NCBI GenBank assembly: GCA_012520435.1
Contig: JAAYOI010000019.1
Location: 1 to 62,583, forward strand
Origin: Mollicutes bacterium
Lineage (GTDB): Bacteria; Bacillota_I; Bacilli_A; RF39; UBA660
Direction of reading: 5' to 3'
Length of the DNA stretch: 62,583 bases
The notes beneath the pieces are model-generated. The model saw only the letters and a program-made list of their open reading frames with translations, did no database searches and was not told the origin of the DNA. A program made the position numbers and the translations under genes. Shown one piece after another: positions 5,440 through 61,819 of this stretch; positions within the stretch are counted from its first letter, which is position 1, and each line of letters opens with the position of its first letter.

Positions 5440-5889
5440 TTACTTTATTCTTTTTGTTTTAAAAAATTCTTTTAATATTTTTTGAGATTCTTCTTCTAAA
5501 ACACCTCGTACAATTTTTACCTTATGATTATTTTTTTTATTGTTTAAAACATTTTCTATGCTACCAGCAAAACCAAATTTTTCGTTTGTTGTTGCATATA
5601 TTACCCGGGAAATCCTTGATTGTATTATAGCACCAGCACACATTAAACAAGGTTCTAAAGTTATATATAATTCACATCCATCTAAATACCATGAATTTAA
5701 TTTTTTACAAGCTTTTTCAATTGCTATTATTTCTGCATGTCTGGTTGCTATTTTTTTTATTTCTTTTTGATTATGTGCCCGGGAAATAATTTTATTATCT
5801 TTTACAATTACAGCACCAACAGGAACATCGCCATTTAAAAAAGATTTTTTTGCTTCTTTTAAAGCTTCTAACATATATTTTTCCTTCAT
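5440..5889 (-). CDS. tadA: tRNA-specific adenosine deaminase TadA
   Basis: Start moved to ATG 5889 (MKEKYMLEAL..., GGGTGGTG SD), because the ORF-track start at 5919 overlaps the SRP RNA. CDA motifs HAEIIAI and PCLMCAGAI. Confidence 0.9.
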   Translation of the reverse strand: MKEKYMLEALKEAKKSFLNGDVPVGAVIVKDNKIISRAHNQKEIKKIATRHAEIIAIEKACKKLNSWYLDGCELYITLEPCLMCAGAIIQSRISRVIYATTNEKFGFAGSIENVLNNKKNNHKVKIVRGVLEEESQKILKEFFKTKRIK

Positions 5890-5910
5890 TTTCACCACCC
5901 ATAAAAAAGT

Positions 5911-5983
5911 GACACGCACATATAGGGATTCTTAAGGCTGCTATTTTCCAATCCTGACCTGGTTCGAATATATATGTCGTGTC
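5911..5983 (-). ncRNA. ffs: Small (4.5S-type, about 73 nt) signal recognition particle RNA
   Basis: The minus strand reads GACACGACAUAUAUAUUCGAACCAGGUCAGGAUUGGAAAAUAGCAGCCUUAAGAAUCCCUAUAUGUGCGUGUC. It has the conserved helix-8 ACCAGGUCAGG..GGAA..AGCAGCC, pairing 5' and 3' ends, a U6 tail, and an upstream TTGATT/TATATT promoter-like pair. Confidence 0.8.
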
Positions 5984-6041
5984 TATATAAATATATACTA
6001 TTATTATTAATAAATCAACTTTTGTTATATATTTTTATTAT

Positions 6042-6275
6042 TGTTTCACGTGAAACATATATTTTTATTAATTAATGTTTCACGTGGAACATAAGGATTT
6101 TTACTTGCTTATATGTTTCACGTGAAACATAAGGATTTTTACTTGCTTATATGTTTCACGTGGAACATAAAGAGTTATTTATTAGATATTTTACATTAAA
6201 TATGAATTTTTCTATCTATTAATGTTCCACGTGAAACTAAATCATTGTTTAAAAAATCATGTTTCACGTGAAACA
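6042..6275. promoter_or_regulatory. parS: Array of six parS (ParB/Spo0J centromere) sites
   Basis: 16-mers at 6042, 6076, 6114, 6152, 6223 and 6260 read TGTTTCACGTGAAACA (x3), TGTTTCACGTGGAACA (x2) and TGTTCCACGTGAAACT. The consensus is TGTTNCACGTGAAACA. Confidence 0.85.
6075..6170. repeat. 38-bp tandem direct repeat (about 2.5 copies), each unit carrying one parS
   Basis: 6075-6112 and 6113-6150 are identical except for one G/A inside parS (ATGTTTCACGTGRAACATAAGGATTTTTACTTGCTTAT). A third partial copy spans 6151-6170. Confidence 0.9.
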
Positions 6276-11924: not shown

Positions 11925-11952
11925 AAAAAGGTAAATTTAAATTTACCTTTTA
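11925..11952. terminator. Hairpin terminator after comK (bidirectional palindrome)
   Basis: AAAAGGTAAATTT/AAATTTACCTTTT perfect inverted repeat overlapping the comK stop. Confidence 0.55.
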
Positions 11953-12402
11953 TAATAATTTTCTTTTCCTTAGAATTGATTCTAAACGAGTTGCTCTTAA
12001 AATTTGATTGTCAAGTGAACCATAAGAAATATCTAATTCTAAGGTTTGACCATTTTTAAATATAATAATACTGCAATTCTCTTTTTTTTGGTAAATCTCT
12101 ATGTGATTTAAAGAAATCCAAAAGCAATTATCAAAACGTGGTGAACTTGTAGGAAAAAAGATAATTTCTTTTGTTTCTTCAATAATTATAGGAGATTTGT
12201 AACTTACACCTATAAGGCTTTTTGTTCCTTCAAATCTTCCTACATAAGAACTACCAAAAAATTTGCAACTATCATCGATAACCTCAGTAGTAGATTTATT
12301 AATGATATAATCGTTTTCTTCTTCAATAATTCTAGATACTTTAGGTTCTATCGGGATAATTGCTAATGTAGAACTATTAATTTCATATTTCTCAATTTGC
12401 AT
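11950..12402 (-). CDS. comK: ComK-family competence transcription factor (short form, 150 aa)
   Basis: Aligns block by block with recalled B. subtilis ComK: YEINSSTLAIIP, IDDSCKFFGSSYVGRFEGT, YKSPIIIE..IIFFPTSSPRFDNCFWIS, FKNGQTLELDISYGSLDNQILRATRL. GGAGG SD upstream. Confidence 0.85.
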   Translation of the reverse strand: MQIEKYEINSSTLAIIPIEPKVSRIIEEENDYIINKSTTEVIDDSCKFFGSSYVGRFEGTKSLIGVSYKSPIIIEETKEIIFFPTSSPRFDNCFWISLNHIEIYQKKENCSIIIFKNGQTLELDISYGSLDNQILRATRLESILRKRKLL

Positions 12403-13833: not shown

Positions 13834-15186
13834 TTACTTTATTTGATTTATTATTTTTTGTATTTCTTGTTCTAAATCTTTATTTTTTGAAATTTCTTTT
13901 TTTATCTTTTCTATTGAATGAATTACTGTTGTATGATCTTTTCCACCAAATTCCATACCTATTTTAGCAAGTGATTCTTCTAAAAAAGTTCGACAAATAT
14001 ACATAGCAATTTGTCTTGGAACAGCAATTTTTACAACTCTTTTTTTGCTTTTCATATCATCTACTGTTATATTGTAATGATTAGCTACAATTTGTTGAAT
14101 TTGATCTATTTTATTTTTTGAAATAATACTTTTTACAAAGTAATCTTTTAATGCTTCAATAGCTAGATCAAGTGTTATATCAGAACCACCCATCATTGTT
14201 GCATAAGCAAAAATTCTTGTGATTGCCCCTTCTAATTTTCTAATATCATTAGTACAGTTACTAGCAATATATTCTTTTACTTCTTTTGGAAATGTATTTG
14301 ATAAAATATGTCCTTCAATTTTTTTATCAATAATATCCATTCTTAATTTGAAATCTGGAGGTAAAATATTAACTGTAAGCCCCCAATTAAACCTCGTTCT
14401 TAAACGATCTTCTAAATGTTTTAAATCATCAGGCGAACGATCTGAAGAAATAATAATTTGTTTATTTTTAGTATGTAAATCATTAAATGTGTTAAAAAAT
14501 TCTTGTTGGGTTTTTGAAGCTATTTCTAAATATTGGATATCATCTATCATTAGGACATCAATTTCACGATATTTATTTTTAAAGTTTTTAACGCTTTCAA
14601 AATTATTTCCTTCTCTATTTTTTCTATATAAATCAATAAAATCATTAACAAATTGCTCACTGGTAACATATAAAACTTTTTTATTACTATTTTTTAATAT
14701 ATAGTTACCAATTGCGTGCATCAAATGTGTTTTTCCTAATCCGCTGTTTCCGTATATAAATAAAGGATTATACATATAACCAGGCTTTTCAGCAACTGCT
14801 AAAGCAGCTGTTTTAGCAAATTTATTACTTTCTCCAACAATAAAGTTTTCAAAGGTGTATTTTGGATTTAAATTTGATTCAAAGTTAAATAAATTTGGAA
14901 CACCATCTTCTGTTTTTTCAATTTTTACGTTTTCTTTTAATTCTTCTTCAGTAACATATTCAAATTTAAAATTAGAACCAGTAATTTCCGTAAAATTTTC
15001 TTCAATAAAATCATTATAATTTTCTTTTAAATGTTTTTTATGAACATGCATTGGAACTAAAACAGTAGCTTTATTATTTTCTAAAGAAATTAATTTGGTT
15101 TCCATGAACCAAATTTCATATAACATTGGCGATAAATTTTCTTTTACTTTATTTAAAAATAAATTCCAAATGTTATTAATATCCAT
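13834..15186 (-). CDS. dnaA: Chromosomal replication initiator DnaA
   Basis: 450 aa. Walker A GNSGLGKTHLMHA and a C-terminal DNA-binding helix ...GGKDHTTVIHSIEKI. Confidence 0.97.
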   Translation of the reverse strand: MDINNIWNLFLNKVKENLSPMLYEIWFMETKLISLENNKATVLVPMHVHKKHLKENYNDFIEENFTEITGSNFKFEYVTEEELKENVKIEKTEDGVPNLFNFESNLNPKYTFENFIVGESNKFAKTAALAVAEKPGYMYNPLFIYGNSGLGKTHLMHAIGNYILKNSNKKVLYVTSEQFVNDFIDLYRKNREGNNFESVKNFKNKYREIDVLMIDDIQYLEIASKTQQEFFNTFNDLHTKNKQIIISSDRSPDDLKHLEDRLRTRFNWGLTVNILPPDFKLRMDIIDKKIEGHILSNTFPKEVKEYIASNCTNDIRKLEGAITRIFAYATMMGGSDITLDLAIEALKDYFVKSIISKNKIDQIQQIVANHYNITVDDMKSKKRVVKIAVPRQIAMYICRTFLEESLAKIGMEFGGKDHTTVIHSIEKIKKEISKNKDLEQEIQKIINQIK

Positions 15187-15716: not shown

Positions 15717-16058
15717 ATGAAAAAAATTAATATTATTAAAAGTAACAGAGATTTTGAAAGAATAATAAATAACCAAAAACCTTATATATACAAAGATTTT
15801 ATAGTATATGTTGAAAGAACAACAGAAAATATATATCGTTTTGGTATTTCTATTGGAAAAAAAGTAGGAAAAGCTGTTGTAAGAAATCGTTTAAAAAGGC
15901 AATTGAAAAATATAATTGATAAAAAAATCTACCAAAAAGGATTTAATTGTATTATAATGATAAAGAAAGATATTTTAAACAAAAATTTTCATGAAATGGA
16001 GAAAGATTTAAATCACATCTTTGAAAAAATAGGTATTATAGAAGGAGAAAACAAATGA
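15717..16058 (+). CDS. rnpA: Ribonuclease P protein component
   Basis: 113 aa, basic, with the RNR-type motif AVVRNRLKRQLK. rpmH-rnpA synteny. Confidence 0.9.
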   Translation: MKKINIIKSNRDFERIINNQKPYIYKDFIVYVERTTENIYRFGISIGKKVGKAVVRNRLKRQLKNIIDKKIYQKGFNCIIMIKKDILNKNFHEMEKDLNHIFEKIGIIEGENK

Positions 16059-19095: not shown

Positions 19096-20094
19096 ATGGA
19101 TTTAGTAAGATTTGCCCTAGTAGGAAACTATAAAAGATTTTATCAAGATTTAAAGAAAATTGGAAAAGAAAAAAAGAAATCACCTCTTTTAATGTTTATT
19201 GATACTGCTTTATGTGTAATTTTTATAGGTGGGGGGTTACAAGATTATTTAAATTACCGTTTTTATGAAAAAAGCTGGAAAGAAAGAAGAAAATATGTAA
19301 CGATTGGATATCAAGCCAAAATGTATAAAAAAATGGCTAACATAAAATATGCTCCTTTCTTTTCCAACAAACCTAATTTTTTGCGAAATTTTCGCAAATA
19401 CACCAAAAGAGATTGGTACGATTCAGAAATGGAATATGAAAAATTAGAAGAATTCTTAAGTATACATGATACGTTTATTTTAAAACCTATTATTGGTTTA
19501 GGTGGAACTAATGTTCAAAAGATAGAGACTAAAACAATTGTTGATCGAAAGAAATTTTATGAAGATTTAAAAAACAAAAAAATGTTTATTGAAGAATTTA
19601 TCGTTCAAGATCCAAGATGGGGAGAAATATGTCCTAATAGTGTTAATACATTAAGAGTGATGACTTCAGTTGTAAATGGTAAACCAAAACTTTTTTTTGC
19701 TGCTGCTCGAATTGGTAGTGGCAAATATGTTGTTGATAATTTTCATGTTGGTGGAATGGCAGCATTAATTGATTTAGAAACGGGAAAATTAATTGGTAAT
19801 GGTTTTACTAAAAAATTAGATGAATATGAAAGACACCCTGTTACTAATATTAAAATTGATGGATATGAAATACCATATTGGAATGAAGTAAAAGAAATGG
19901 TTTTAGAAGCAGCACTAGTCAATGAAAATGTTAATGTTGTTGGTTGGGATGTAGCAATTACCAAAGATGGTCCAGTTATTATAGAAGGAAATCGGGGTCC
20001 AGGGTGGGATTTAGTACAAGTTTTATTAAATAAAGGAACAAAATATATGTTAGAAGATATAAAAAAAGAGATGAAACAACATGGTTTGTGGTAA
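19096..20094 (+). CDS. Orphan ATP-grasp protein (ATPgrasp_ST / RimK-related alpha-L-glutamate-ligase-like)
   Basis: 332 aa. NTLRVMT..RIGSGKYVVDNFHVGGMAALIDLETGKL..HPVT..GYEIPYW..VGWDVAITKDGPVIIEGNRGPGWDLVQ matches the family signature as I recall it. AGGAGG SD. Confidence 0.7.
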   Translation: MDLVRFALVGNYKRFYQDLKKIGKEKKKSPLLMFIDTALCVIFIGGGLQDYLNYRFYEKSWKERRKYVTIGYQAKMYKKMANIKYAPFFSNKPNFLRNFRKYTKRDWYDSEMEYEKLEEFLSIHDTFILKPIIGLGGTNVQKIETKTIVDRKKFYEDLKNKKMFIEEFIVQDPRWGEICPNSVNTLRVMTSVVNGKPKLFFAAARIGSGKYVVDNFHVGGMAALIDLETGKLIGNGFTKKLDEYERHPVTNIKIDGYEIPYWNEVKEMVLEAALVNENVNVVGWDVAITKDGPVIIEGNRGPGWDLVQVLLNKGTKYMLEDIKKEMKQHGLW

Positions 20095-22058: not shown

Positions 22059-22755
22059 AAAAGAATTTATTGAATACTTAAAAAAAATAAATATTAAAAT
22101 TAATGACGAGCAATTAAAACAATTTGATAGATATTATCAATTGTTAATAGAATGGAATGAAAAAATTAATTTAACATCTATTATTGATAAAAAACAAGTA
22201 TATTTAAAACATTTTTATGATAGTGCAACGATTGCTCAAGTAATTGATCTAAATAATTTAGATAATTTGTGTGATGTAGGTACAGGGGCTGGTTTCCCCG
22301 GATTAGTTCTTAAAATTCTATACCCTAACTTAAATGTAACATTAATTGATTCTTTAAATAAAAGAATTAAATTTTTAGAAAAAGTAATTGTAGAATTAGG
22401 ACTTAAAAAAGTCGAAGTTATTCATGCTAGAGTTGAAGAATATGCAAAAAATAATCGTGAAAAATTTGATGTTGTAACAGCTCGTGCTGTTGCTCCTCTT
22501 AATATCCTGTTAGAATATTGTTTACCATTGGTAAAAGTTGAAAAATATTTTATTCCAATGAAAGGTAATATTTCCCAGGAAATAGGAGAATGTCAAAAAG
22601 CTCTCAAAATACTTAATGGAATTGTTATTGAAAAGAAAGAATTTTTATTACCTATTGAAAACAGCCATCGAACCATTTTAAAAATAAAAAAAATGAGTGC
22701 AACATCTAATGAATACCCAAGAAAAAATAGTGAAATAAAAAAAAGACCATTATAA
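22051..22755 (+). CDS. rsmG: 16S rRNA (guanine527-N7)-methyltransferase RsmG
   Basis: 234 aa. DVGTGAGFPGLVLKI. ATGA-type overlap with mnmG. Confidence 0.93.
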   Translation: MTEKEFIEYLKKINIKINDEQLKQFDRYYQLLIEWNEKINLTSIIDKKQVYLKHFYDSATIAQVIDLNNLDNLCDVGTGAGFPGLVLKILYPNLNVTLIDSLNKRIKFLEKVIVELGLKKVEVIHARVEEYAKNNREKFDVVTARAVAPLNILLEYCLPLVKVEKYFIPMKGNISQEIGECQKALKILNGIVIEKKEFLLPIENSHRTILKIKKMSATSNEYPRKNSEIKKRPL

Positions 22756-22783: not shown

Positions 22784-22827
22784 TTTTGGGAAATATTTTT
22801 AAAAAAAGATTGAATTATTTCCCAAAA
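22784..22827. repeat. 12-bp perfect inverted repeat overlapping the promoter of the Noc-like gene
   Basis: TTTTGGGAAATA (22784-22795) and TATTTCCCAAAA (22816-22827), with a 20-nt spacer. The arms contain GGGAAATA and TATTTCCC. Confidence 0.85.
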
Positions 22828-22838
22828 TGTAGTAAGAT
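22810..22838 (+). promoter_or_regulatory. Putative promoter of the Noc-like gene
   Basis: TTGAAT, 17-nt spacer, TAAGAT. The spacer begins with TATTTCCC. Confidence 0.4.
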
Positions 22839-22870: not shown

Positions 22871-24445
22871 ATGGAAAATGAAAAAAAAGTTGTAGAACTA
22901 GATTTAGATGATATTTTACCAAATAGGTTTCAACCTAGAATAAAATTTGATGAAGGAAAAATTAATGAATTGGCTGAATCAATTAAAGAACATGGTGTTA
23001 TTCAACCAATAATTGTTCGGCCAATTGGTGATAAATATGAAATAATTGCTGGTGAAAGACGTTATAAAGCTAGTGTTATTGCAGGAAAATCAACAATACC
23101 TGCAATTATAACCGATTTAAATGATCGAGAAAGCGCAGAAATTGCTTTGATCGAAAATGTTCAAAGAGAAGATTTGTCACCAATTGAAGAAGCTATTTCA
23201 TATCGTAAAATATTAAATATGGGGTTAACACAAGAACAATTAGCAGACAAATTAGATCGTAATCAATCAACTATTTCTAATAAATTACGTTTGCTTAATT
23301 TAGAGGAAGATGTACAAGAAGCATTATTAAATAATAAAATTTCTGAAAGACATGCGAGATCTTTATTACGTTTACATGATCCTAAACAACAAGTTGCTAT
23401 GTTGGAAAGAATTATAAATGAAAGGTTAACTGTTCGTAGAACTGATGAAGATATTGATAAATTATTAAATGCAGACAATAATAATGAAAAAAATATATTA
23501 ATGCAAAATATTGAAGAAAAAGGAGAAACAATGGATAATAAAGAAAATATAGATTTTAATATTCCTTCTGAACCAATAATTAATGATGCTGATGAACAAC
23601 CAATAGATTTTATTGATGTAAATAATCCAATCAAACCTGAACTATTATTAGATTTTGAAGAACAAGAACCGGTTGTTGAAAACTTTAATATAAATAATGA
23701 AACTAGGTTTATAGATAATGCTGAAAAACCAGGCTTTCTTGATATTGACAAAATTGAAACAGAAGCACAAGATATACATATAGATAAACCGATTCCTAAT
23801 ATTGATGATTTATTGCAATTAAATTCTACTAGTACACCTATCGAATCTATTGATGAAGAATCTGATAAAGAACAAGAAAAACAACCAATCGAAGATAACA
23901 TTGATAATATTTGGACAAATAAATTCTTTGATATTGAAAATAATGCACCAGAAAATACCGCAGTTCCGCAAGAACCAGAAGAAACGGATAACATTTTTAG
24001 TGGCGATACTTTTGTTGACATAAGCCCTGATAACATTATACCAACAGATGAAAATGTAAATATTGATGAAGATTTGAATAAAGAAATAGAGTTTGATAAT
24101 AACTCATTCCCTGAAATAAACAATATATATAATAATGAAGATAATATAGATATGCCAGACATATTTAATGCTTATGAAACAGATAATGAAGATATTGATA
24201 ATTTAGGAATGAATCTTGATAATGTTATTACTAATGATAATATTGAGGAAATTAAAAAAGAAAATGAGATTTTATTTCAAAATAATGTTGAAGCAGGAGC
24301 TGATTTAAAAAGTATAATTAGTACAATTCGTAATTGTGCATCAGAAATAGAGAAAATGGGTTATGTAATAGAAACAGAAGAATTAGATTTTGAAAACGAA
24401 TATCGTGTAACCTTTAAAATAAATAAAGAAAAAAGTAAATTTTAA
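22871..24445 (+). CDS. ParB/Noc-family protein, Noc-type, with an acidic low-complexity insertion of about 270 aa
   Basis: 524 aa. PNRFQPR, GERRYKA (box II), HTH NQSTISNKLRLL, ISERHARSL, and a C-terminal Noc-like domain IISTIRN..MGYVIETEELDFENEYRVTFKINK. Residues about 200-474 are D/E/N-rich. It sits in the rsmG-noc position. Confidence 0.85.
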   Translation: MENEKKVVELDLDDILPNRFQPRIKFDEGKINELAESIKEHGVIQPIIVRPIGDKYEIIAGERRYKASVIAGKSTIPAIITDLNDRESAEIALIENVQREDLSPIEEAISYRKILNMGLTQEQLADKLDRNQSTISNKLRLLNLEEDVQEALLNNKISERHARSLLRLHDPKQQVAMLERIINERLTVRRTDEDIDKLLNADNNNEKNILMQNIEEKGETMDNKENIDFNIPSEPIINDADEQPIDFIDVNNPIKPELLLDFEEQEPVVENFNINNETRFIDNAEKPGFLDIDKIETEAQDIHIDKPIPNIDDLLQLNSTSTPIESIDEESDKEQEKQPIEDNIDNIWTNKFFDIENNAPENTAVPQEPEETDNIFSGDTFVDISPDNIIPTDENVNIDEDLNKEIEFDNNSFPEINNIYNNEDNIDMPDIFNAYETDNEDIDNLGMNLDNVITNDNIEEIKKENEILFQNNVEAGADLKSIISTIRNCASEIEKMGYVIETEELDFENEYRVTFKINKEKSKF

Positions 24446-27032: not shown

Positions 27033-27848
27033 ATGCAAGGAATTTTATTTGATTTTGGAATAATTAAAATATATTGGTATTCTGTTATTATGTTTATCGC
27101 TTTTTTTATTGGTGGTTCATTAGCACTACACGAAGCAAAAAAATGGAAAATACCTGAAGATTTTATGATTAATCTTTTCTTTTTTTTGTTTCCCTTAGCT
27201 GCTATTGGTGCTCGTGCTTATTTTGTTGCCTTTAATTGGTCATATTATAGTCAAAATATAAATGAAATTTTTAAAATATGGGAAGGCGGATTAGCTATTC
27301 ATGGAGGAATGATAGTAGGTTTAATATGGATAATTCTTTACAGCAAAAAATATAAAGTTAATACATGGCGTTTATTAGACATTATTGTTGTTAGCTTATT
27401 AATAAGTCAAGCAATTGGTCGTTGGGGTAATTTTTTCAATAAAGAAGCATATGGACCAGCTACTACTTATGAATTTTTAAAAAATTTATTAATTCCAGAA
27501 TTTATTATTGAAGGAATGAAAATTAATGGTATTTATTATCAACCAACCTTTTTATATGAATCTATTTGGTGTTTTATAGGGTTTGTTTTAATATTGCTTA
27601 TTAGAAGATATAAATATATTAAAATTGGTCAAATTACTAGTTTTTATTTAATGTGGTATGGTTTTGGACGCTTTTTTATTGAGTCTTTAAGGCAAGATAG
27701 TTTAATGTTAAATAACTTTAAAATGGCTCAAATTATATCAGTAATAATGTTTGTTGTTGGCATAATCGTGTTTTTTATACGCAAACAAGGTTCAAAATTT
27801 GAAAATCAATATAATGATAAGGAGAATGTTAATGTCATTACGTTCTGA
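27033..27848 (+). CDS. lgt: Prolipoprotein diacylglyceryl transferase
   Basis: 271 aa. WEGGLAIHGG and GRWGNFFNKEAYG motifs. Confidence 0.93.
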   Translation: MQGILFDFGIIKIYWYSVIMFIAFFIGGSLALHEAKKWKIPEDFMINLFFFLFPLAAIGARAYFVAFNWSYYSQNINEIFKIWEGGLAIHGGMIVGLIWIILYSKKYKVNTWRLLDIIVVSLLISQAIGRWGNFFNKEAYGPATTYEFLKNLLIPEFIIEGMKINGIYYQPTFLYESIWCFIGFVLILLIRRYKYIKIGQITSFYLMWYGFGRFFIESLRQDSLMLNNFKMAQIISVIMFVVGIIVFFIRKQGSKFENQYNDKENVNVITF

Positions 27849-28758
27849 TTGTTTGGTAATTGGTGCAGGTATAGCTGGGATGACAGCTGCTCTTTATTTA
27901 AAAAGATCAAATGTTAATGTTATTTTAATTGAAAAAAGTGCACCTGGTGGGCAAATTAATATGACATCAAAAATTGAAAATTATCCTGGGTTTGATAGTA
28001 TTGATGGGCCAACTTTAGCAATGAATATTTTTAATCAAATTAAAAGTTTAGGTGTGGAATATCGTTATGGCAATGTCATTGATATTGTTGATACAGGTAA
28101 AAGCAAAATAGTAAAAACCGATATGGATGAGATAGAATGCCAAGTAGTTATTATTGCGACTGGTCGTATTCCTAAAGAATTAGGTTTAGAAAATGAAAAA
28201 CAACTAACTGGTAGAGGTGTTAGTTGGTGTGCGGTATGTGATGGATTTTTTTACAAAGATAAAAAAGTTGCGATTATTGGTGGTGGCAATTGTGCATTAG
28301 AAGAAGCTTTATTTTTAGCTGATATTGCCAAAAAAGTATATCTTATTCATCGTCGTGATCAATTTCGAGCAGAACTTTGTTTACAAGATAAAATCAATGA
28401 AAAAAAGAATATTGAGATTATATTTAACAGTAATATTATTGAATTAAAAGAAAAAGATAATAAATTAAGTGAAATCATTTTAGAAACTAAGGGTAAAAAA
28501 GAATCATTACCGGTGGATGGTTTATTTATTCATGTTGGTTTTAAACCTAATTTAAGTTTTATTAAAAATTTAAATATTAAAACAGAAGATGAATACATCA
28601 TAGTTGACCAAAATATGGAAACTAACATAAAAAATATATTTGCTTGTGGGGATGTTATTAAAAAAGACGTTTATCAATTAACTACGGCTGTTGGTGAAGG
28701 CGCTATTGCAGCTACCAACGCTAAAAAAAGAATTGATAATACCCTTAATAAAATTTAA
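27832..28758 (+). CDS. trxB: Thioredoxin-disulfide reductase
   Basis: Start at ATG 27832 (MSLRSDCLVIGAGIAGMTAA). Redox centre CAVCDG and a second GGGNCALEEA dinucleotide fold. Confidence 0.92.
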   Translation: MSLRSDCLVIGAGIAGMTAALYLKRSNVNVILIEKSAPGGQINMTSKIENYPGFDSIDGPTLAMNIFNQIKSLGVEYRYGNVIDIVDTGKSKIVKTDMDEIECQVVIIATGRIPKELGLENEKQLTGRGVSWCAVCDGFFYKDKKVAIIGGGNCALEEALFLADIAKKVYLIHRRDQFRAELCLQDKINEKKNIEIIFNSNIIELKEKDNKLSEIILETKGKKESLPVDGLFIHVGFKPNLSFIKNLNIKTEDEYIIVDQNMETNIKNIFACGDVIKKDVYQLTTAVGEGAIAATNAKKRIDNTLNKI

Positions 28759-28766
28759 GGGTTTTT
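28741..28766 (+). terminator. Intrinsic terminator after trxB
   Basis: ACCCTTAA-TAAAAT-TTAAGGGT followed by TTTT. Confidence 0.65.
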
Positions 28767-28844
28767 AAATTGTTTTTTGATAATAAAAATGTGTTATAAT
28801 ATACAAGTAATAAATTAATTTTTGAATAGTAAAGAGGGATTAAC

Positions 28845-54873: not shown

Positions 54874-55422
54874 ATGATAAAAGTATTAGCTTTTGATTTT
54901 GTTGGAGTATTAGGTTATGAAAAAGATGTTGAAATGACAGAAATCGAAGAAAAATTGGAAAGAATGTATGGTCCAATTATAAATGATGAAAAATATTTCA
55001 AAGTTGGAAGAAGATATATTAACAATGATGATACAATTATAAGAATTACAAAAAATCTTATTAATAGGTTATATGGAATTAGGTATAAAAATTTATTTCA
55101 AAAAATAAAAGAGCTATATCCTGATATAAAGGTAGTAATTGCTACTAATCATGTATCTTATATAAGAGAATTTCTTGAAAAAAGATTTGATATAAAATAT
55201 TTAGATGATATTATTATTTCAGCTGAAATAAATAAAGCAAAACCCAATGATGATTTTTATGAATACATTTTGGAAAAATATAATATTAAACCAAACGAAT
55301 TATTATTTATAGATGATCGTGAAGAAAATGTAGATGCTGCTATTAATCTAGGTATAAATGCTATAAAATATAATAGTAGAGAAATGGATTTGTTAGAAAC
55401 AGTATTAGATTTAATTAAATAA
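54874..55422 (+). CDS. HAD-superfamily hydrolase (subfamily IA-like)
   Basis: 182 aa. Motif I AFDFVGVL, motif II VIATN, motif IV LFIDDREENV. Confidence 0.75.
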   Translation: MIKVLAFDFVGVLGYEKDVEMTEIEEKLERMYGPIINDEKYFKVGRRYINNDDTIIRITKNLINRLYGIRYKNLFQKIKELYPDIKVVIATNHVSYIREFLEKRFDIKYLDDIIISAEINKAKPNDDFYEYILEKYNIKPNELLFIDDREENVDAAINLGINAIKYNSREMDLLETVLDLIK

Positions 55423-60433: not shown

Positions 60434-61819
60434 ATGATAGTAATTGATGCTGGACATGGTGGAGATGATCCTGGAGCAATAGGAAATAATATAATTGAAA
60501 AAGATTTAAATTTAGATATTTCTAAATATATGTATAATCGTTTTCGTGAATTAGGAGTTCCTGTACAAATGACACGAACTACTGATGAAACATTACCACC
60601 AGATGAAAGAGTAAGAAGAGTTATTAATGCTTTTGGTAATAATCCCAATGTTATTGTTTTATCTAATCATATAAATGCTGGTGTTGGAGATGGTGCTGAA
60701 GTTATTTATGCATTACGTAATACCAGTACATTACCTAACTTAATTTTAGAAGAGTTGGCAAAGGCTGGGCAAAATATAAGAAAAGCATATCAACGACGTT
60801 TGCCATCTGATACAGCTAAAGATTATTATTTTATGCAAAGAGAAACGGGAAATACGCAAGCTATTACCATTGAATATGGTTTTTTAGATAATGCGGCGGA
60901 TGCCGCTCAATTAAAAAATAATTGGCAAAATTATGCAGAAGCAGTTGTTAAAGCAGTAATGCAATATTTAAAATTGCCTTATATACCACCTGTTGGCATT
61001 GATGTTTATATAGTTCAACCAGGTGATACTTTATGGAGTATTGCTAAAAAATTAAATACAACGGTTGATGATTTAAAAGCGACCAATAATTTAACAACCA
61101 ATTTATTAAGTGTCGGTCAAATATTAAAAATACCATCAGTTGAACCGGTTCCTATACCACCAGTGCCTGGAGAATATACTGAATATGTAGTTAAATCAGG
61201 TGATACATTATACTCAATAGCTAAAAGATATGGTATAAGTGTTGATAAATTAATACAATTTAACAATTTAAAAACATCTGATTTAAGTATTGGTCAAATA
61301 TTAAAAATACCAACTCCAGGTGTAACACCACCAATCGAAGTTCCAAGTGGTGAATTTATATCTTATACAGTACAACCAGGAGATAATCTATATTCAATAG
61401 CTCAAAGATATAATACTACAATTGATGAATTAATGAAAACAAATAATTTAACAACCACCTTGTTAAGCATAGGACAAATATTAAAAATACCTGTTACACC
61501 TTCAATACCACTAGAACCTACTCCTGAATATATCGAATATATTGTTCAACCGGGAGATAATTTATATGCAATTGCTAAAAAGTATGATACGACAACTACT
61601 GAAATAATGCAGTTTAATAATCTTAAAAGTAATTTATTAAGTATCGGTCAAGTATTAAAGATTCCTAAAAGTTCTTCAGGACAAATAACTTATGTAGTAA
61701 AAAGTGGCGATAATTTATATTCAATCGCTAAAAAGTATAATACAACGGTTGATGAAATTAAAATAAAGAATAATTTAAAAAGTAATTTATTAAATATTGG
61801 TCAAGTATTAGTTATATAA
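60434..61819 (+). CDS. N-acetylmuramoyl-L-alanine amidase (Amidase_3) with five C-terminal LysM domains and no signal peptide
   Basis: 461 aa. MIVIDAGHGGDDPGA at the extreme N-terminus. Five repeats of Y.V..GD.L..IA..Y......L...N.L....L..GQ.LKIP separated by P-rich linkers. Confidence 0.9.
   Translation: MIVIDAGHGGDDPGAIGNNIIEKDLNLDISKYMYNRFRELGVPVQMTRTTDETLPPDERVRRVINAFGNNPNVIVLSNHINAGVGDGAEVIYALRNTSTLPNLILEELAKAGQNIRKAYQRRLPSDTAKDYYFMQRETGNTQAITIEYGFLDNAADAAQLKNNWQNYAEAVVKAVMQYLKLPYIPPVGIDVYIVQPGDTLWSIAKKLNTTVDDLKATNNLTTNLLSVGQILKIPSVEPVPIPPVPGEYTEYVVKSGDTLYSIAKRYGISVDKLIQFNNLKTSDLSIGQILKIPTPGVTPPIEVPSGEFISYTVQPGDNLYSIAQRYNTTIDELMKTNNLTTTLLSIGQILKIPVTPSIPLEPTPEYIEYIVQPGDNLYAIAKKYDTTTTEIMQFNNLKSNLLSIGQVLKIPKSSSGQITYVVKSGDNLYSIAKKYNTTVDEIKIKNNLKSNLLNIGQVLVI

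What the first reader, a model, noticed from the sequence alone, without database searches (positions are those of the whole stretch)
22871..24445. Noc-type ParB paralogue without the membrane-targeting N-terminus but with an acidic insertion of about 270 aa, and no soj/spo0J beside it
The ordered parts align with B. subtilis Noc as I recall it: PNRFQPR, GERRYKA, QSTISNKLRLL, ISERHARSL, and a C-terminal IISTIRN...ETEELDFENEYRVTFKINK. The gene occupies the rsmG-noc position. Three things differ.
- Only 16 residues precede PNRFQPR, and the amphipathic membrane-binding helix of Noc (MKHSFSRFFGLG...) is absent.
- The short basic linker before the C-terminal domain is replaced by about 270 residues (aa 200-474, nt about 23468-24292) made almost entirely of D/E/N/I/P. 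This is a strongly acidic, presumably disordered tract.
- The usual soj-spo0J pair does not follow; uvrB is next.

At the HTH positions reported to switch parS versus NBS specificity, this protein looks Noc-like at three of four (Q in NQST, K in SNKL, R in ERHAR). The fourth is N (LLNL). That assignment is from memory and needs an alignment. Box II has K in place of the last Arg (GERRYKA). A Noc that cannot bind membrane and carries a long polyanionic segment is not a described architecture.
Basis: partly seen in the sequence, partly recalled or inferred. Interest (0 to 1): 0.7.

Follow-up and report, generated by a model that had tools for sequence, protein, structure and literature searches.

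The report
Noc-like protein with long acidic tether
This gene encodes the version of the bacterial "nucleoid occlusion" DNA clamp Noc found in a large group of uncultured gut and digester bacteria; it lacks Noc's usual membrane anchor and instead has a long, floppy, acidic tether with a few conserved short motifs, so it probably works differently from textbook Noc.

Summary
ORF 22871-24445 encodes a 524-aa ParB-family protein.

**Domains.** The N-terminal CTP-binding and DNA-binding domains (aa 1-204) and the 50-aa C-terminal domain are Noc-type. A 275-aa disordered linker lies between them (net charge -62).

**Missing parts.** The Noc N-terminal membrane helix is absent and cannot be encoded upstream. 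No soj or spo0J follows the gene.

**Not an artefact, not a one-off.** All 120 closest homologues and dozens of uncultured low-GC Bacilli genomes share the build.

**Orthology.** In sister lineages the long form sits in rsmG-noc-soj-spo0J. It groups with Bacillales Noc against Spo0J in 200 of 200 bootstraps.

**DNA specificity.** The residues Q-K-N-R predict NBS binding, not parS binding.
- NBS sites occur in this species.
- NBS half-sites sit in the gene's own promoter in 19 of 23 related loci.

**Linker.** It carries conserved short motifs found only in this family. One of them, [GN]KFFN(F/L), resembles the Noc membrane helix, so "cannot bind membrane" is unproven.

**Soj/Spo0J.** The soj-spo0J block that relatives carry between trxB and ychF is missing here. 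A six-copy parS array at 6042-6275 still implies a canonical ParB elsewhere in the genome.

**Verdict.** This is a new variant of a known kind and is of moderate-to-high interest.

The parts
22871..24445 (+). Gene for the 524-aa Noc-clade ParB-family protein
   Evidence: ORF. Pfam ParB_N and HTH_ParB. TIGR04285 is the best model. The identical protein is on 16 contigs.
22871..23482 (+). Folded N-terminal CTP-binding domain plus NBS-type DNA-binding domain (aa 1-204). It includes PNRFQPR (22919-22939), GERRYKA (23051-23071), ENVQRE (23153-23170), the recognition helix QSTISNKLRLLNL (23264-23302) and ERHAR (23345-23359).
   Evidence: pLDDT is about 90. The best PDB matches are Noc 7nfu/7ng0 at 208 bits, and 7nfu at Foldseek E 5.7e-21. 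R64 and N96 align with Noc R89 and N121, which are needed for CTP binding.
23468..24292 (+). Acidic, disordered linker (aa 200-474; net charge -62)
   Evidence: Composition. pLDDT below 50 except around motif 2. Length varies from 69 to 468 aa and the net charge is always negative in MAG homologues.
23555..23590 (+). Linker motif 1, FNIPSEPIINDA (consensus F-NIP[ST]xPII-[ED]D)
   Evidence: P232, P235 and I236 are at least 90% conserved in A1 and A2. The motif is restricted to the closer clade.
23726..23818 (+). Linker motif 2, KPGFLDIDKIETEAQDIHIDKPIPNIDDLLQ, a predicted short amphipathic helix followed by a D-x-LL element
   Evidence: P287, F289, I295, A299, L314 and L315 are at least 90% conserved. 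pLDDT is about 70, with helices at 292-298 and 311-314. The core hD[IV][DN]x[IL]xxxAxDI is also present in distant long-linker homologues.
23915..23941 (+). Linker motif 3, TNKFFDIEN (consensus [GNP][KN]F[FI][NSD][FL]x[ED]). This is the candidate membrane- or partner-binding motif.
   Evidence: F353 is invariant and F352 at least 90% conserved. The motif is present across distant lineages, including the minimal 319-aa form L038. It resembles Bacillales Noc N-termini such as MKPSFSRFFGLGEK. Its hydrophobic moment is similar to theirs but not exceptional.
24293..24445 (+). Noc-type C-terminal dimerisation domain (aa 475-524) and stop codon
   Evidence: pLDDT is about 93, with a helix and two strands. 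BLASTP against the Mesobacillus Noc C-terminus gives E 2e-6, with no match to its Spo0J.
22569..22584 (.). NBS-like palindrome TATTTCCCAGGAAATA inside rsmG, 302 bp upstream of the start codon
   Evidence: One mismatch to the 16-bp NBS. The window has 2 sites with up to 2 mismatches against 0.04 expected. The same position is kept at nucleotide level in relatives while flanking codons vary, and it is perfect in L008 and L011.
22784..22795 (-). NBS half-site element TATTTCCCAAAA (inverted copy), upstream of the promoter
   Evidence: Of 135 ATTTCCC occurrences in 23 loci, 35 lie at -130..-25 from the start codon, against 0.5% expected.
22810..22838 (+). Inferred promoter: TTGAAT (22810-22815), a 17-bp spacer, then TAAGAT (22833-22838). 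The NBS half-site TATTTCCCAAAA (22816-22827) fills the spacer, so this is a putative autoregulatory operator.
   Evidence: The TTGnnn-TATTTCCCAAAATATAGTAttAT layout is conserved across species in about 15 loci. The simple consensus scan did not call this promoter: by my count it matches 8 of 12 positions, and the threshold is 9.
5599..5614 (.). Second NBS-like site, TATTACCCGGGAAATC (2 mismatches), inside the tadA-like gene

Best explanation
**What it is.** The gene encodes the Noc orthologue of an uncultured, low-GC lineage of class Bacilli. It belongs to the Noc branch of the CTP-dependent ParB DNA-clamp family.

**Shown**
- The CTP-binding N-terminal domain has the key residues (R64, N96).
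- The helix-turn-helix carries the two NBS-determining residues (Q132 = position 173, R160 = position 201) and one permissive lysine (K138 = position 179).
- The C-terminal dimerisation domain is Noc-type.

**Inferred**
- Dimers load at NBS-type palindromes (TATTTCCC|GGGAAATA). This species has such sites in rsmG, rsmI and tadA.
- Dimers also load at NBS half-sites in the gene's own promoter, where binding in the -35/-10 spacer should repress its own transcription.

**How it differs from textbook Noc.** The family has no N-terminal membrane-targeting helix. The effector part has instead moved into the link between the DNA-binding and dimerisation domains. That link is of variable length, always acidic and disordered, and carries two or three conserved short motifs.

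**Most likely working model (inferred).**
- The motifs are the contact points with the membrane or with a division or replication partner. The KFF motif is the best candidate for a Noc-like amphipathic anchor.
- The polyanionic chain keeps the tether off DNA. It gives the DNA-bound clamps reach and bulk, so clusters of clamps still mark the nucleoid.

**Relation to parS.** This protein is not the parS-binding partition protein. The missing soj-spo0J is a separate event in this lineage.
For: **Identity**
- TIGR04285 nucleoid_noc is the best model.
- Noc structures are the best sequence matches: 208 bits, against 158 for B. subtilis Spo0J.
- Noc structures are also the best fold matches: 7nfu TM 0.76, and the Noc-NBS DNA-binding domain 6y93 TM 0.88-0.91.
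- The C-terminal domain matches Noc (E 2e-6) and not Spo0J.
- A neighbour-joining tree of 124 cores separates Spo0J from Noc plus long-Noc in 200 of 200 bootstraps.
- In at least 17 sister genomes the long form occupies rsmG-[long Noc]-soj-spo0J.

**Specificity**
- The residues are Q-K-N-R.
- PMC7383237 states that Q173 reads A1 and R201 reads C6, given K at 179 or 184, and that parS binders always have R173.

**Sites**
- The window has 2 NBS 16-mers with up to 2 mismatches against 0.04 expected.
- A perfect NBS lies in rsmI of the same species.
- The rsmG site is kept at nucleotide level across species.
- 10 of 16 NBS-like hits in 59 loci lie within 400 bp upstream of the gene, against 2.3% expected.
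- The half-site operator is present in 19 of 23 loci.
- TATTTCCC occurs 11 times in the window against 3.55 expected.

**Linker**
- It is disordered.
- It is always acidic, whereas co-resident Spo0J and Bacillales Noc have short neutral or basic linkers.
- Its motifs are conserved and found in no other protein family among 1.84 billion representatives.
Against: - The defining Noc membrane helix is absent, and the protein falls below the curated Noc cutoff.
- No biochemical data exist for any family member.
- The similarity between the KFF motif and the Noc helix covers only 6-8 residues. Its hydrophobic moment (0.41-0.49) is no higher than that of other linker segments. It sits in a strongly acidic context, which should disfavour binding to anionic membranes.
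- The promoter was not called by the consensus scan.
- The rsmG sites in different species are homologous positions, so they are not independent observations.
- Box II has K in place of the last R, with unknown effect on CTP turnover. The co-resident Spo0J of sister lineages has the same change.
Confidence: 0.7

Rival explanations
1. It is the organism's only ParB and acts as the canonical partition and SMC-loading protein on the six-copy parS array at 6042-6275. Soj and Spo0J have been lost.
For: - No soj or spo0J lies in about 82 kb around oriC of this species.
- The soj-spo0J block is missing from its syntenic slot.
- A strong parS array is present: 15 strand matches at six sites against 1.76 expected.
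Against: - Q at position 173 and R at 201 exclude parS binding according to PMC7383237. There, R173 and G201 are invariant in ParB orthologues and in parS-specific variants.
- The protein is unchanged at these positions compared with relatives that also have a normal Spo0J.
- It has no ParA-type N-terminal LG[KR]GL peptide.
- It groups with Noc in 200 of 200 bootstraps.
- NBS-type sites, not parS sites, accompany the gene.
Confidence: 0.05
2. It no longer performs nucleoid occlusion. It is a KorB-like CTP-dependent sliding-clamp transcription regulator that represses its own promoter and possibly other NBS-linked promoters. The linker motifs recruit a co-repressor.
For: - The NBS half-site lies exactly in the promoter spacer and is conserved in 19 of 23 loci.
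- The membrane helix is lost.
- KorB is a ParB-family clamp with a comparable N-terminal and DNA-binding fold (8qa9, TM 0.69-0.70).
Against: - Autoregulation does not exclude a chromosome-wide role.
- NBS-like full sites lie inside genes (rsmG, rsmI, tadA), as in Bacillus, and not at other promoters.
- Half-sites are about 3-fold enriched across the window.
- The Pfam KorB match is insignificant.
Confidence: 0.12
3. The linker is a functionally neutral low-complexity expansion typical of fast-evolving AT-rich genomes. The protein is a decaying Noc that lost its anchor.
For: - Linker length varies from 69 to 468 aa with little sequence conservation outside the motifs.
- Its composition (N, I, D, E) reflects AT-rich codons.
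Against: - The ORF stays intact and the folded domains are highly conserved across hundreds of species.
- The linker is acidic in every member, while the paralogous Spo0J in the same genomes keeps a short linker.
- Two motifs survive even in the minimal 319-aa form and give a family-specific profile: 67 representatives at E <= 1e-10.
Confidence: 0.1

Closest known systems
Noc (nucleoid occlusion protein) of Bacillus subtilis / Geobacillus thermoleovorans (PDB 7nfu, 7ng0, 7ol9, 6y93)
   Same: - The N-terminal CTP-binding domain has the same fold, with the R89 and N121 equivalents kept.
- The DNA-binding domain is NBS-type, with Q173, K179 and R201.
- The C-terminal domain is Noc-type.
- The gene sits directly after rsmG, and NBS-type palindromes are present in the genome.
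- Core identity is about 52%.
   Different: [quoted passage not shown] Only 16 residues precede box I.
- The short basic linker (net +1 to +6) is replaced by 275 acidic disordered residues carrying conserved motifs.
- Position 184 is N.
- Box II is GERRYKA.
- The score is below the TIGR04285 cutoff.
- NBS half-sites lie in the gene's own promoter.
Spo0J/ParB (chromosomal partition protein; PDB 6sdk, 1vz0, 6t1f)
   Same: - Same superfamily, with the same three-domain plan and CTP motifs.
- Core identity is 43-47%.
   Different: - It has Q/R in place of the invariant R173/G201.
- It has no LG[KR]GL ParA-stimulating N-terminal peptide.
- Its C-terminal domain is unrelated by BLASTP.
- It is not next to parA.
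- In sister genomes a separate, normal Spo0J coexists with it.
KorB of plasmid RK2 (ParB-family CTP clamp and repressor; PDB 8qa8/8qa9)
   Same: - It is a ParB-family clamp whose DNA-binding and dimerisation domains are joined by a long flexible segment (from my own knowledge).
- It represses promoters, which is comparable to the operator seen here.
- Fold match has TM about 0.7.
   Different: - It is plasmid-borne, recognises a different operator (OB) and works with KorA.
- The Pfam KorB match here is not significant (E 0.034, below cutoff).
- Its linker is far shorter, and no shared motifs are known.
Short N-terminal amphipathic membrane anchors of division proteins (Noc MKHSFSRFFGLG; SepF MSMKNKLKNFFSM...). 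The SepF sequence is recalled from memory.
   Same: They share a [KR]-x-F-F-[GSN]-hydrophobic core followed by acidic residues, like linker motif 3 (PNKFFNFLEDE). Noc N-termini were read from Bacillales loci.
   Different: - Here the motif is internal, 150-250 residues from either folded domain.
- It sits in a polyanionic context.
- No membrane binding has been tested, and the hydrophobic-moment analysis was inconclusive.

Membership tests
Noc (nucleoid occlusion protein, TIGR04285) | ParB-type N-terminal CTP-binding domain with box II (GERRxRA) and box III (ENLQRE). The Noc R89 and N121 equivalents are required for CTP binding. | tested here: met
   GERRYKA and ENVQRE are present. R64 aligns with R89 and N96 with N121 (alignment; PMC8429893). 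The last box II Arg is Lys, family-wide.
Noc (nucleoid occlusion protein, TIGR04285) | NBS-specifying residues: Q173 and R201 plus K at 179 and/or 184 (Jalal et al. 2020) | tested here: met
   The residues are Q-K-N-R. The rule comes from PMC7383237. Residues other than K at 184, including N, also occur in Bacillales genes in the noc position.
Noc (nucleoid occlusion protein, TIGR04285) | N-terminal 10-aa amphipathic membrane-targeting sequence | tested here: not met
   Sixteen residues precede PNRFQPR. There is an in-frame stop upstream and no alternative start. The helix is absent in all 120 homologues, whereas most Bacillales Noc N-termini that could be read begin MKxxFSRFFGLGEK or a close variant.
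Noc (nucleoid occlusion protein, TIGR04285) | Noc-type C-terminal dimerisation domain | tested here: met
   BLASTP gives E 2e-6 over the last 44 residues of Mesobacillus Noc, with no match to its Spo0J. TIGR04285 matches in two stretches.
Noc (nucleoid occlusion protein, TIGR04285) | Curated whole-protein score cutoff (315 bits) | tested here: not met
   The score is 278.5 bits. Public records name the family only 'ParB/RepB/Spo0J family partition protein'.
Noc (nucleoid occlusion protein, TIGR04285) | Orthology: groups with Noc rather than Spo0J, and lies in the rsmG-noc-soj-spo0J position | tested here: met
   The split has 200 of 200 bootstraps. The gene follows rsmG in all loci. soj-spo0J follows directly in at least 17 sister genomes, though not in this species.
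Noc (nucleoid occlusion protein, TIGR04285) | Cognate NBS sites (ATTTCCCGGGAAAT) scattered in the chromosome | tested here: met
   The window has 2 sites with up to 2 mismatches against 0.04 expected. There is a perfect site in rsmI of the same species. Only about 82 kb could be surveyed, so genome-wide distribution and absence near the terminus were not tested.
Noc (nucleoid occlusion protein, TIGR04285) | CTP-switched membrane binding and inhibition of division over the nucleoid | not testable with these tools
   This needs liposome co-sedimentation, localisation and genetics.
Chromosomal ParB/Spo0J | R173 and G201 (invariant in ParB orthologues), giving parS binding | tested here: not met
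   Q and R occupy these positions (PMC7383237).
Chromosomal ParB/Spo0J | N-terminal ParA-interacting peptide (LG[KR]GL...) and an adjacent parA/soj gene | tested here: not met
   The N-terminus is MENEKKVVELDLDDIL. Spo0J proteins in the loci begin MAKGLGKGL or KRRALGKGLEELF. The window has no ParA.
KorB-type ParB-family repressors | KorB DNA-binding domain (PF08535) and an OB operator | tested here: not met
   PF08535 scores E 0.034 and 14.5 bits, below its 22.3-bit cutoff.

The most novel reading that the evidence does not exclude
In a whole branch of Bacilli, Noc has been rebuilt.
- The CTP-gated N-terminal membrane helix was discarded.
- Its role passed to short motifs inside a long polyanionic tether between the DNA-binding and dimerisation domains. 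These motifs are a KFF amphipathic element and a conserved helix.

The DNA clamp would then contact the membrane or a division or replication partner from inside its own lumen-forming linker.
- This would uncouple the contact from the N-gate CTP switch.
- It would make the acidic brush itself part of the occlusion mechanism.

The protein would also repress its own gene through NBS half-sites.
Probability: 0.3. Interest if true: 0.75.

Novelty: new variant of a known kind. Interest (0 to 1): 0.6.

Why it matters
- **Current model.** Noc is the reference case for a CTP switch that controls membrane binding. The present model requires the N-terminal helix (PMC8429893).
- **What this family changes.** A large natural family keeps the Noc DNA-binding and CTP modules but lacks that helix. 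It carries a 70-470-aa acidic tether with its own conserved motifs. This shows that the Noc branch has a second, unstudied effector design.
- **Experiments it enables.**
  - Test whether membrane tethering is essential for nucleoid occlusion.
  - Measure what linker length and charge do to a ParB-type clamp.
  - Determine whether Noc proteins autoregulate.
- **Annotation.** It gives a simple rule for hundreds of gut and digester genomes (Q..R residues, KFF motif, rsmG neighbourhood). At present these genes are labelled only as generic ParB.
- **Open puzzle.** The orphan parS array beside a deleted soj-spo0J slot is a separate, testable question about chromosome segregation in reduced Bacilli.

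Tried and rejected
1. **Paper tools.** They failed three times and worked later.
2. **parS in relatives.** I looked for parS near the gene in relatives and found none within 10 kb in any MAG locus. The array could therefore not be compared across species.
3. **Spo0J or Soj in this species.**
   - None lies in the window, in 10 kb further left or in 10 kb further right.
4. **Hydrophobic moment of motif 3.** It is similar to the Noc helix but not outstanding in the linker, so the result is inconclusive.
5. **Consensus promoter scan.** It did not call the conserved TTGAAT-17-TAAGAT promoter. That promoter rests on cross-species conservation only.
6. **Monophyly of my "long Noc" class against Bacillales Noc.** It was not recovered (0 of 200). 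The class was defined by length, so this says nothing firm about one or several origins of the long linker.
7. **Motif 2-3 module in other protein families.** A profile search of 1.84 billion representatives found only this family, fragments of it and one low-complexity false hit.
8. **Motif 1 as an FtsZ C-terminal-peptide mimic, and the D-x-LL element as a clamp-binding motif.** The spacing does not match the known consensus sequences as I recall them, so I did not pursue either.
9. **Assembly artefact or pseudogene.** Rejected.
Full report
**1.

The window is a 26% G+C chromosome segment spanning a replication origin. The GC skew changes sign near 15 kb. dnaA lies at 13834-15186 (-) and rnpA at 15717 (+).

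The ORF at 22871-24445 (+) encodes 524 aa.
- An in-frame TGA lies 20 codons upstream, with no start codon in between. The short N-terminus is therefore real, with 16 residues before PNRFQPR.
- Pfam finds ParB_N (aa 6-98) and HTH_ParB (aa 100-198) and nothing in the rest.
- The best NCBIfam model is nucleoid_noc (TIGR04285), at 278.5 bits in two stretches. This is under its 315-bit cutoff. The generic parB_part model scores 177 bits.

Residues 200-474 form the linker.
- It is 275 aa long, with 76 acidic and 14 basic residues (net -62), and 65% of it is D/E/N/I/P.
- AlphaFold2, run with a 69-sequence alignment, gives pLDDT of about 90 for aa 1-204 and 478-520. The linker is below 50 except for aa 290-320, which reach about 70.

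The gene follows rsmG, and uvrB is next.

**2. It is not an artefact and not a one-off**

The identical protein is on 16 contigs from independent metagenomes, including biogas fermenters.

All 120 best database homologues share these features:
- 14-18 residues before PNRFQPR;
- GERR[YF]KA in box II;
- Q-K-N-R at the specificity positions (Q-K-K-R in seven, unreadable by my pattern in two);
- a Noc-like C-terminus, except in one truncated sequence (P0067);
- a total length of 404-654 aa apart from that truncated sequence (344 aa).

A scan of species-representative genomes returned 80 loci. Among them are dozens of uncultured MAGs titled Bacilli, Tenericutes, Mycoplasma sp. or Erysipelotrichaceae from gut and digester samples. 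These titles fit the fast-evolving small-genome orders around Mycoplasmatales described in PMC10868615. I could not assign the order.

**3. It is a Noc orthologue, not a Spo0J**

- *Sequence.* Noc crystal-structure chains are the best PDB matches: 208 bits for Geobacillus Noc and 186 for B. subtilis Noc, against 183 for T. thermophilus Spo0J and 158 for B. subtilis Spo0J.
- *Structure.* The best Foldseek hit is Geobacillus Noc 7nfu (E 5.7e-21, TM 0.76). The DNA-binding domain fits the Noc-NBS complex 6y93 (TM 0.88-0.91) better than the ParB-parS complex 6s6h (TM 0.62-0.71).
- *C-terminal domain.* It aligns end to end with a Bacillales Noc C-terminus (E 2e-6) and not with the Spo0J of the same genome.
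- *Reference sets.* I extracted every ParB-family ORF from the fetched loci.
  - Bacillales show rsmG-noc-soj-spo0J.
  - Their Noc is 271-316 aa. Most N-termini that could be read begin MKxxFSRFFGLGEK or a close variant. Most have Q-K-[K/Q/N/L/M]-R.
  - Most of their Spo0J proteins that could be read begin MAKGLGKGL or a close variant and have R...G wherever both positions could be read.
- *Sister lineages.* Seventeen MAG loci have the same gene order, but the first gene is the long form.
  - That long form is 366-536 aa, with a short N-terminus and an acidic linker. Where my pattern could read it, it is Q-K-[S/A/N]-R, with one Q-K-Q-K.
  - It is followed by a normal Soj and a normal 292-313-aa Spo0J (KRRALGKGLEELF..., R173, G201 or a small residue).
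- *Tree.* A neighbour-joining tree of 124 NTD+DBD cores separates all Spo0J from all Noc plus long-Noc in 200 of 200 bootstraps. Core identity of the window protein is:

| Compared with | Identity |
|---|---|
| other long forms | 63% |
| Bacillales Noc | 52% |
| MAG Spo0J | 47% |
| Bacillales Spo0J | 43% |

**4. DNA specificity**

Jalal et al. 2020 (PMC7383237) report the following.
- Q173 reads adenine 1 and R201 reads cytosine 6 of NBS.
- Either contact needs a lysine at position 179 or 184.
- R173 and G201 are invariant in ParB orthologues, and R173 is invariant in parS-specific variants.

The window protein has Q132, K138, N143 and R160 at these positions. It should therefore bind NBS and not parS. 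Asparagine at position 184 also occurs in Bacillales genes in the noc position.

The DNA agrees with this prediction.
- The 16-bp NBS with up to 2 mismatches occurs twice in the window against 0.04 expected. The sites are TATTTCCCAGGAAATA in rsmG (22569) and TATTACCCGGGAAATC in tadA (5599).
- A perfect NBS lies in rsmI of the same species, about 580 bp beyond the window.
- The rsmG site is kept at nucleotide level (ATT TCC CAG/CGG GAA ATA) in at least eight relatives, while neighbouring codons and the amino acids of other lineages vary freely. It is a perfect NBS in two of them.
- Across 59 non-redundant AT-rich loci (1.0 Mb), 10 of 16 NBS-like hits lie within 400 bp upstream of the gene, against 2.3% expected. 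Several of these are homologous positions, so the number of independent events is smaller, at about five.

**5. A conserved operator in the gene's own promoter**

I aligned the 110 nt upstream of the start codon.
- In the window's clade this shows TTGnnn - TATTTCCCAAAATATAGTAttAT.
- The NBS half-site TATTTCCC fills the 17-bp spacer between a -35 element and a -10 element. In the window these are TTGAAT (22810-22815), TATTTCCCAAAA (22816-22827) and TAAGAT (22833-22838).
- One or two further copies lie 20-30 bp upstream, direct or inverted. In the window the extra copy is at 22784-22795 on the minus strand.
- Of 135 ATTTCCC occurrences in 23 loci (483 kb), 35 fall at -130..-25 from the start codon, against 0.5% expected. 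Nineteen of the 23 loci have at least one.
- TATTTCCC is also about 3-fold enriched in the window as a whole: 11 observed against 3.55 expected.

I infer autorepression. The simple promoter scan did not call this promoter, so the promoter is an inference from conservation.

**6. The linker is the distinctive part**

The co-resident Spo0J and the Bacillales Noc keep short linkers with net charge near 0 or positive. The long-Noc linker ranges from 69 to 468 aa and is negative in every member, from -9 to -67. The expansion is therefore specific to this paralogue.

Inside the linker are short conserved motifs.
- *Motif 1:* F-NIP[ST]xPII-[ED]D (aa 229-240), found in the closer clade only.
- *Motif 2:* NPGF[ML]DIDKIExxAxDIxxEKPxAxxDxLL (aa 286-316). 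It is predicted as short helices with pLDDT of about 70. Its core, hD[IV][DN]x[IL]xxxAxDI, is present in distant members.
- *Motif 3:* [GNP][KN]F[FI][NSD][FL]x[ED] (aa 349-357, TNKFFDIEN). It is nearly universal and is kept, along with the motif 2 core, even in the minimal 319-aa form L038.

A profile of motifs 2-3 searched against 1.84 billion representative proteins found 144 hits (67 at E <= 1e-10). All were this family or C-terminal fragments of it, apart from one low-complexity false hit.

Motif 3 (PNKFFNFLEDE) resembles the Noc membrane helix as read from the Bacillales loci (MKPSFSRFFGLGEK). From memory, it also resembles the SepF N-terminal anchor. Its hydrophobic moment is comparable to the Noc helix (0.41-0.49 against 0.45) but is not exceptional within the linker. 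I treat this resemblance as a lead, not a result.

PMC8429893 shows three things for B. subtilis Noc.
- The 10-aa helix is required for liposome binding and for nucleoid occlusion.
- CTP binding releases the helix.
- R89 and N121 are needed for CTP binding.

Both residues are conserved here, as R64 and N96.

**7. soj-spo0J and the parS array**

Relatives show where soj-spo0J should be.
- In P0043's contig the order is rsmG - long Noc - uvrB - holin-like - lgt - trxB - soj - spo0J - DUF951 - abgT - ychF.
- The window has exactly this order, except that trxB (27799-28758) is followed after 87 bp by ychF (28845).
- tblastn finds no soj, DUF951 or abgT in the window, and spo0J hits only the long-Noc gene.
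- In another relative (GCA_050259235.1), soj-spo0J-DUF951-abgT-ychF-rpsF lies 49 kb from the long Noc on the same contig.
- Of 80 metagenomic loci with that Spo0J type, 74 have no Noc-like gene in the fetched flanks of up to 6 kb.

Unlinking is therefore common in this clade. In this species the four-gene block has gone from its slot.

Extending the view by 10 kb on each side found no soj or spo0J either.

The window nevertheless carries six parS sites (TGTTTCACGTGAAACA, 0-2 mismatches) at 6042-6275.
- They lie between the SRP RNA gene and gyrA and are built on a 38-bp tandem unit.
- Copy number is 4, 5 or 6 in different assemblies of the species.
- By the specificity rules above, the long Noc should not bind these sites.
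- The simplest reading is that a canonical Spo0J is encoded elsewhere in the genome. This remains open.

**8. Mechanism and rivals**

*Best explanation.* This is an NBS-binding, CTP-dependent Noc-clade clamp.
- It autoregulates through promoter half-sites.
- Its effector function lies in motifs on a polyanionic disordered tether and not in an N-terminal helix.
- Domains, residues, sites, conservation and predicted disorder are shown.
- DNA binding, repression and membrane or partner contact are inferred.

*Confidence.*
- About 0.85 that it is the Noc orthologue with NBS-type specificity.
- About 0.5 for autoregulation.
- About 0.3 for the relocated-anchor idea.

*Rivals.*
- A sole ParB acting on the parS array (0.05).
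- A KorB-like regulator that has lost the occlusion role (0.12).
- A neutral linker expansion in a decaying Noc (0.10).

**9. Comparison and novelty**

The protein belongs evolutionarily to the Noc branch. [quoted passage not shown] I therefore file it as a new variant of a known kind.

I found no description of this architecture in the searchable literature. That library is incomplete. Public records call these proteins only "ParB/RepB/Spo0J family partition protein".

I score interest at 0.6.
- The family is large and conserved, and it directly challenges the helix-centred model of Noc action.
- No function has been tested.

Noticed in passing
window 6042-6275: Six near-perfect parS sites (TGTTTCACGTGAAACA) form a 38-bp tandem array between the SRP RNA gene and gyrA. 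Copy number is 4, 5 or 6 in different assemblies of the same species (L177, L179, L178). No parS-type ParB was found in about 82 kb around oriC.
   Followed up: partly
window 28759-28844: This is the 87-bp trxB|ychF junction. Relatives (L174) carry the four-gene block soj-spo0J-DUF951-abgT at this exact position. None of these genes is in the window.
   Followed up: yes
L177:11298-11313 (same species, about 580 bp left of the window start, inside rsmI): A perfect 16-bp Noc-binding site, TATTTCCCGGGAAATA.
   Followed up: partly
window 55215-55230: A perfect 16-bp palindrome, TATTTCAGCTGAAATA, with NBS-like outer arms but an AGCT core. It lies inside the ORF 54874-55422.
   Followed up: no
window 5898-5991 (-): Bacterial small SRP RNA (RF00169, 55 bits), immediately beside the parS array.
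   Followed up: no
window 19096-20094 (+): An ATP-grasp gene (PF14397) is inserted between mnmE and mnmG. It is present only in this species and in the P0002 relative. Other relatives have an HD-domain gene before mnmE or nothing there.
   Followed up: no
window 11950-12402 (-): A ComK-like ORF lies between recF and dnaN, next to the origin. It is conserved in relatives (PF06338 in L005, L008, L010, L174).
   Followed up: no
L030-L059 second ParB genes (e.g. L031:12264-13160, L045:12046-12924): The canonical Spo0J of sister lineages also has K in place of the last Arg of box II (GERRVKA). Unlike most Bacillales spo0J genes sampled, it has no parS inside its own gene or within 10 kb.
   Followed up: partly
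L010/L092 (GCA_050259235.1); L022, L027, L029, L035, L048, L062; L085: MAG records that carry this Bacilli-type origin region are titled Ignavibacteriales, Muribaculaceae or Candidatus Moraniibacteriota. These are probably mislabelled or mis-binned.
   Followed up: no
window 60434-61819 and L177/L181 flanks: A LysM amidase, a SleB-type hydrolase, BofA and SpoVT are present. The organism probably has a peptidoglycan wall and may sporulate, which bears on how a Noc-like protein would act.
   Followed up: no
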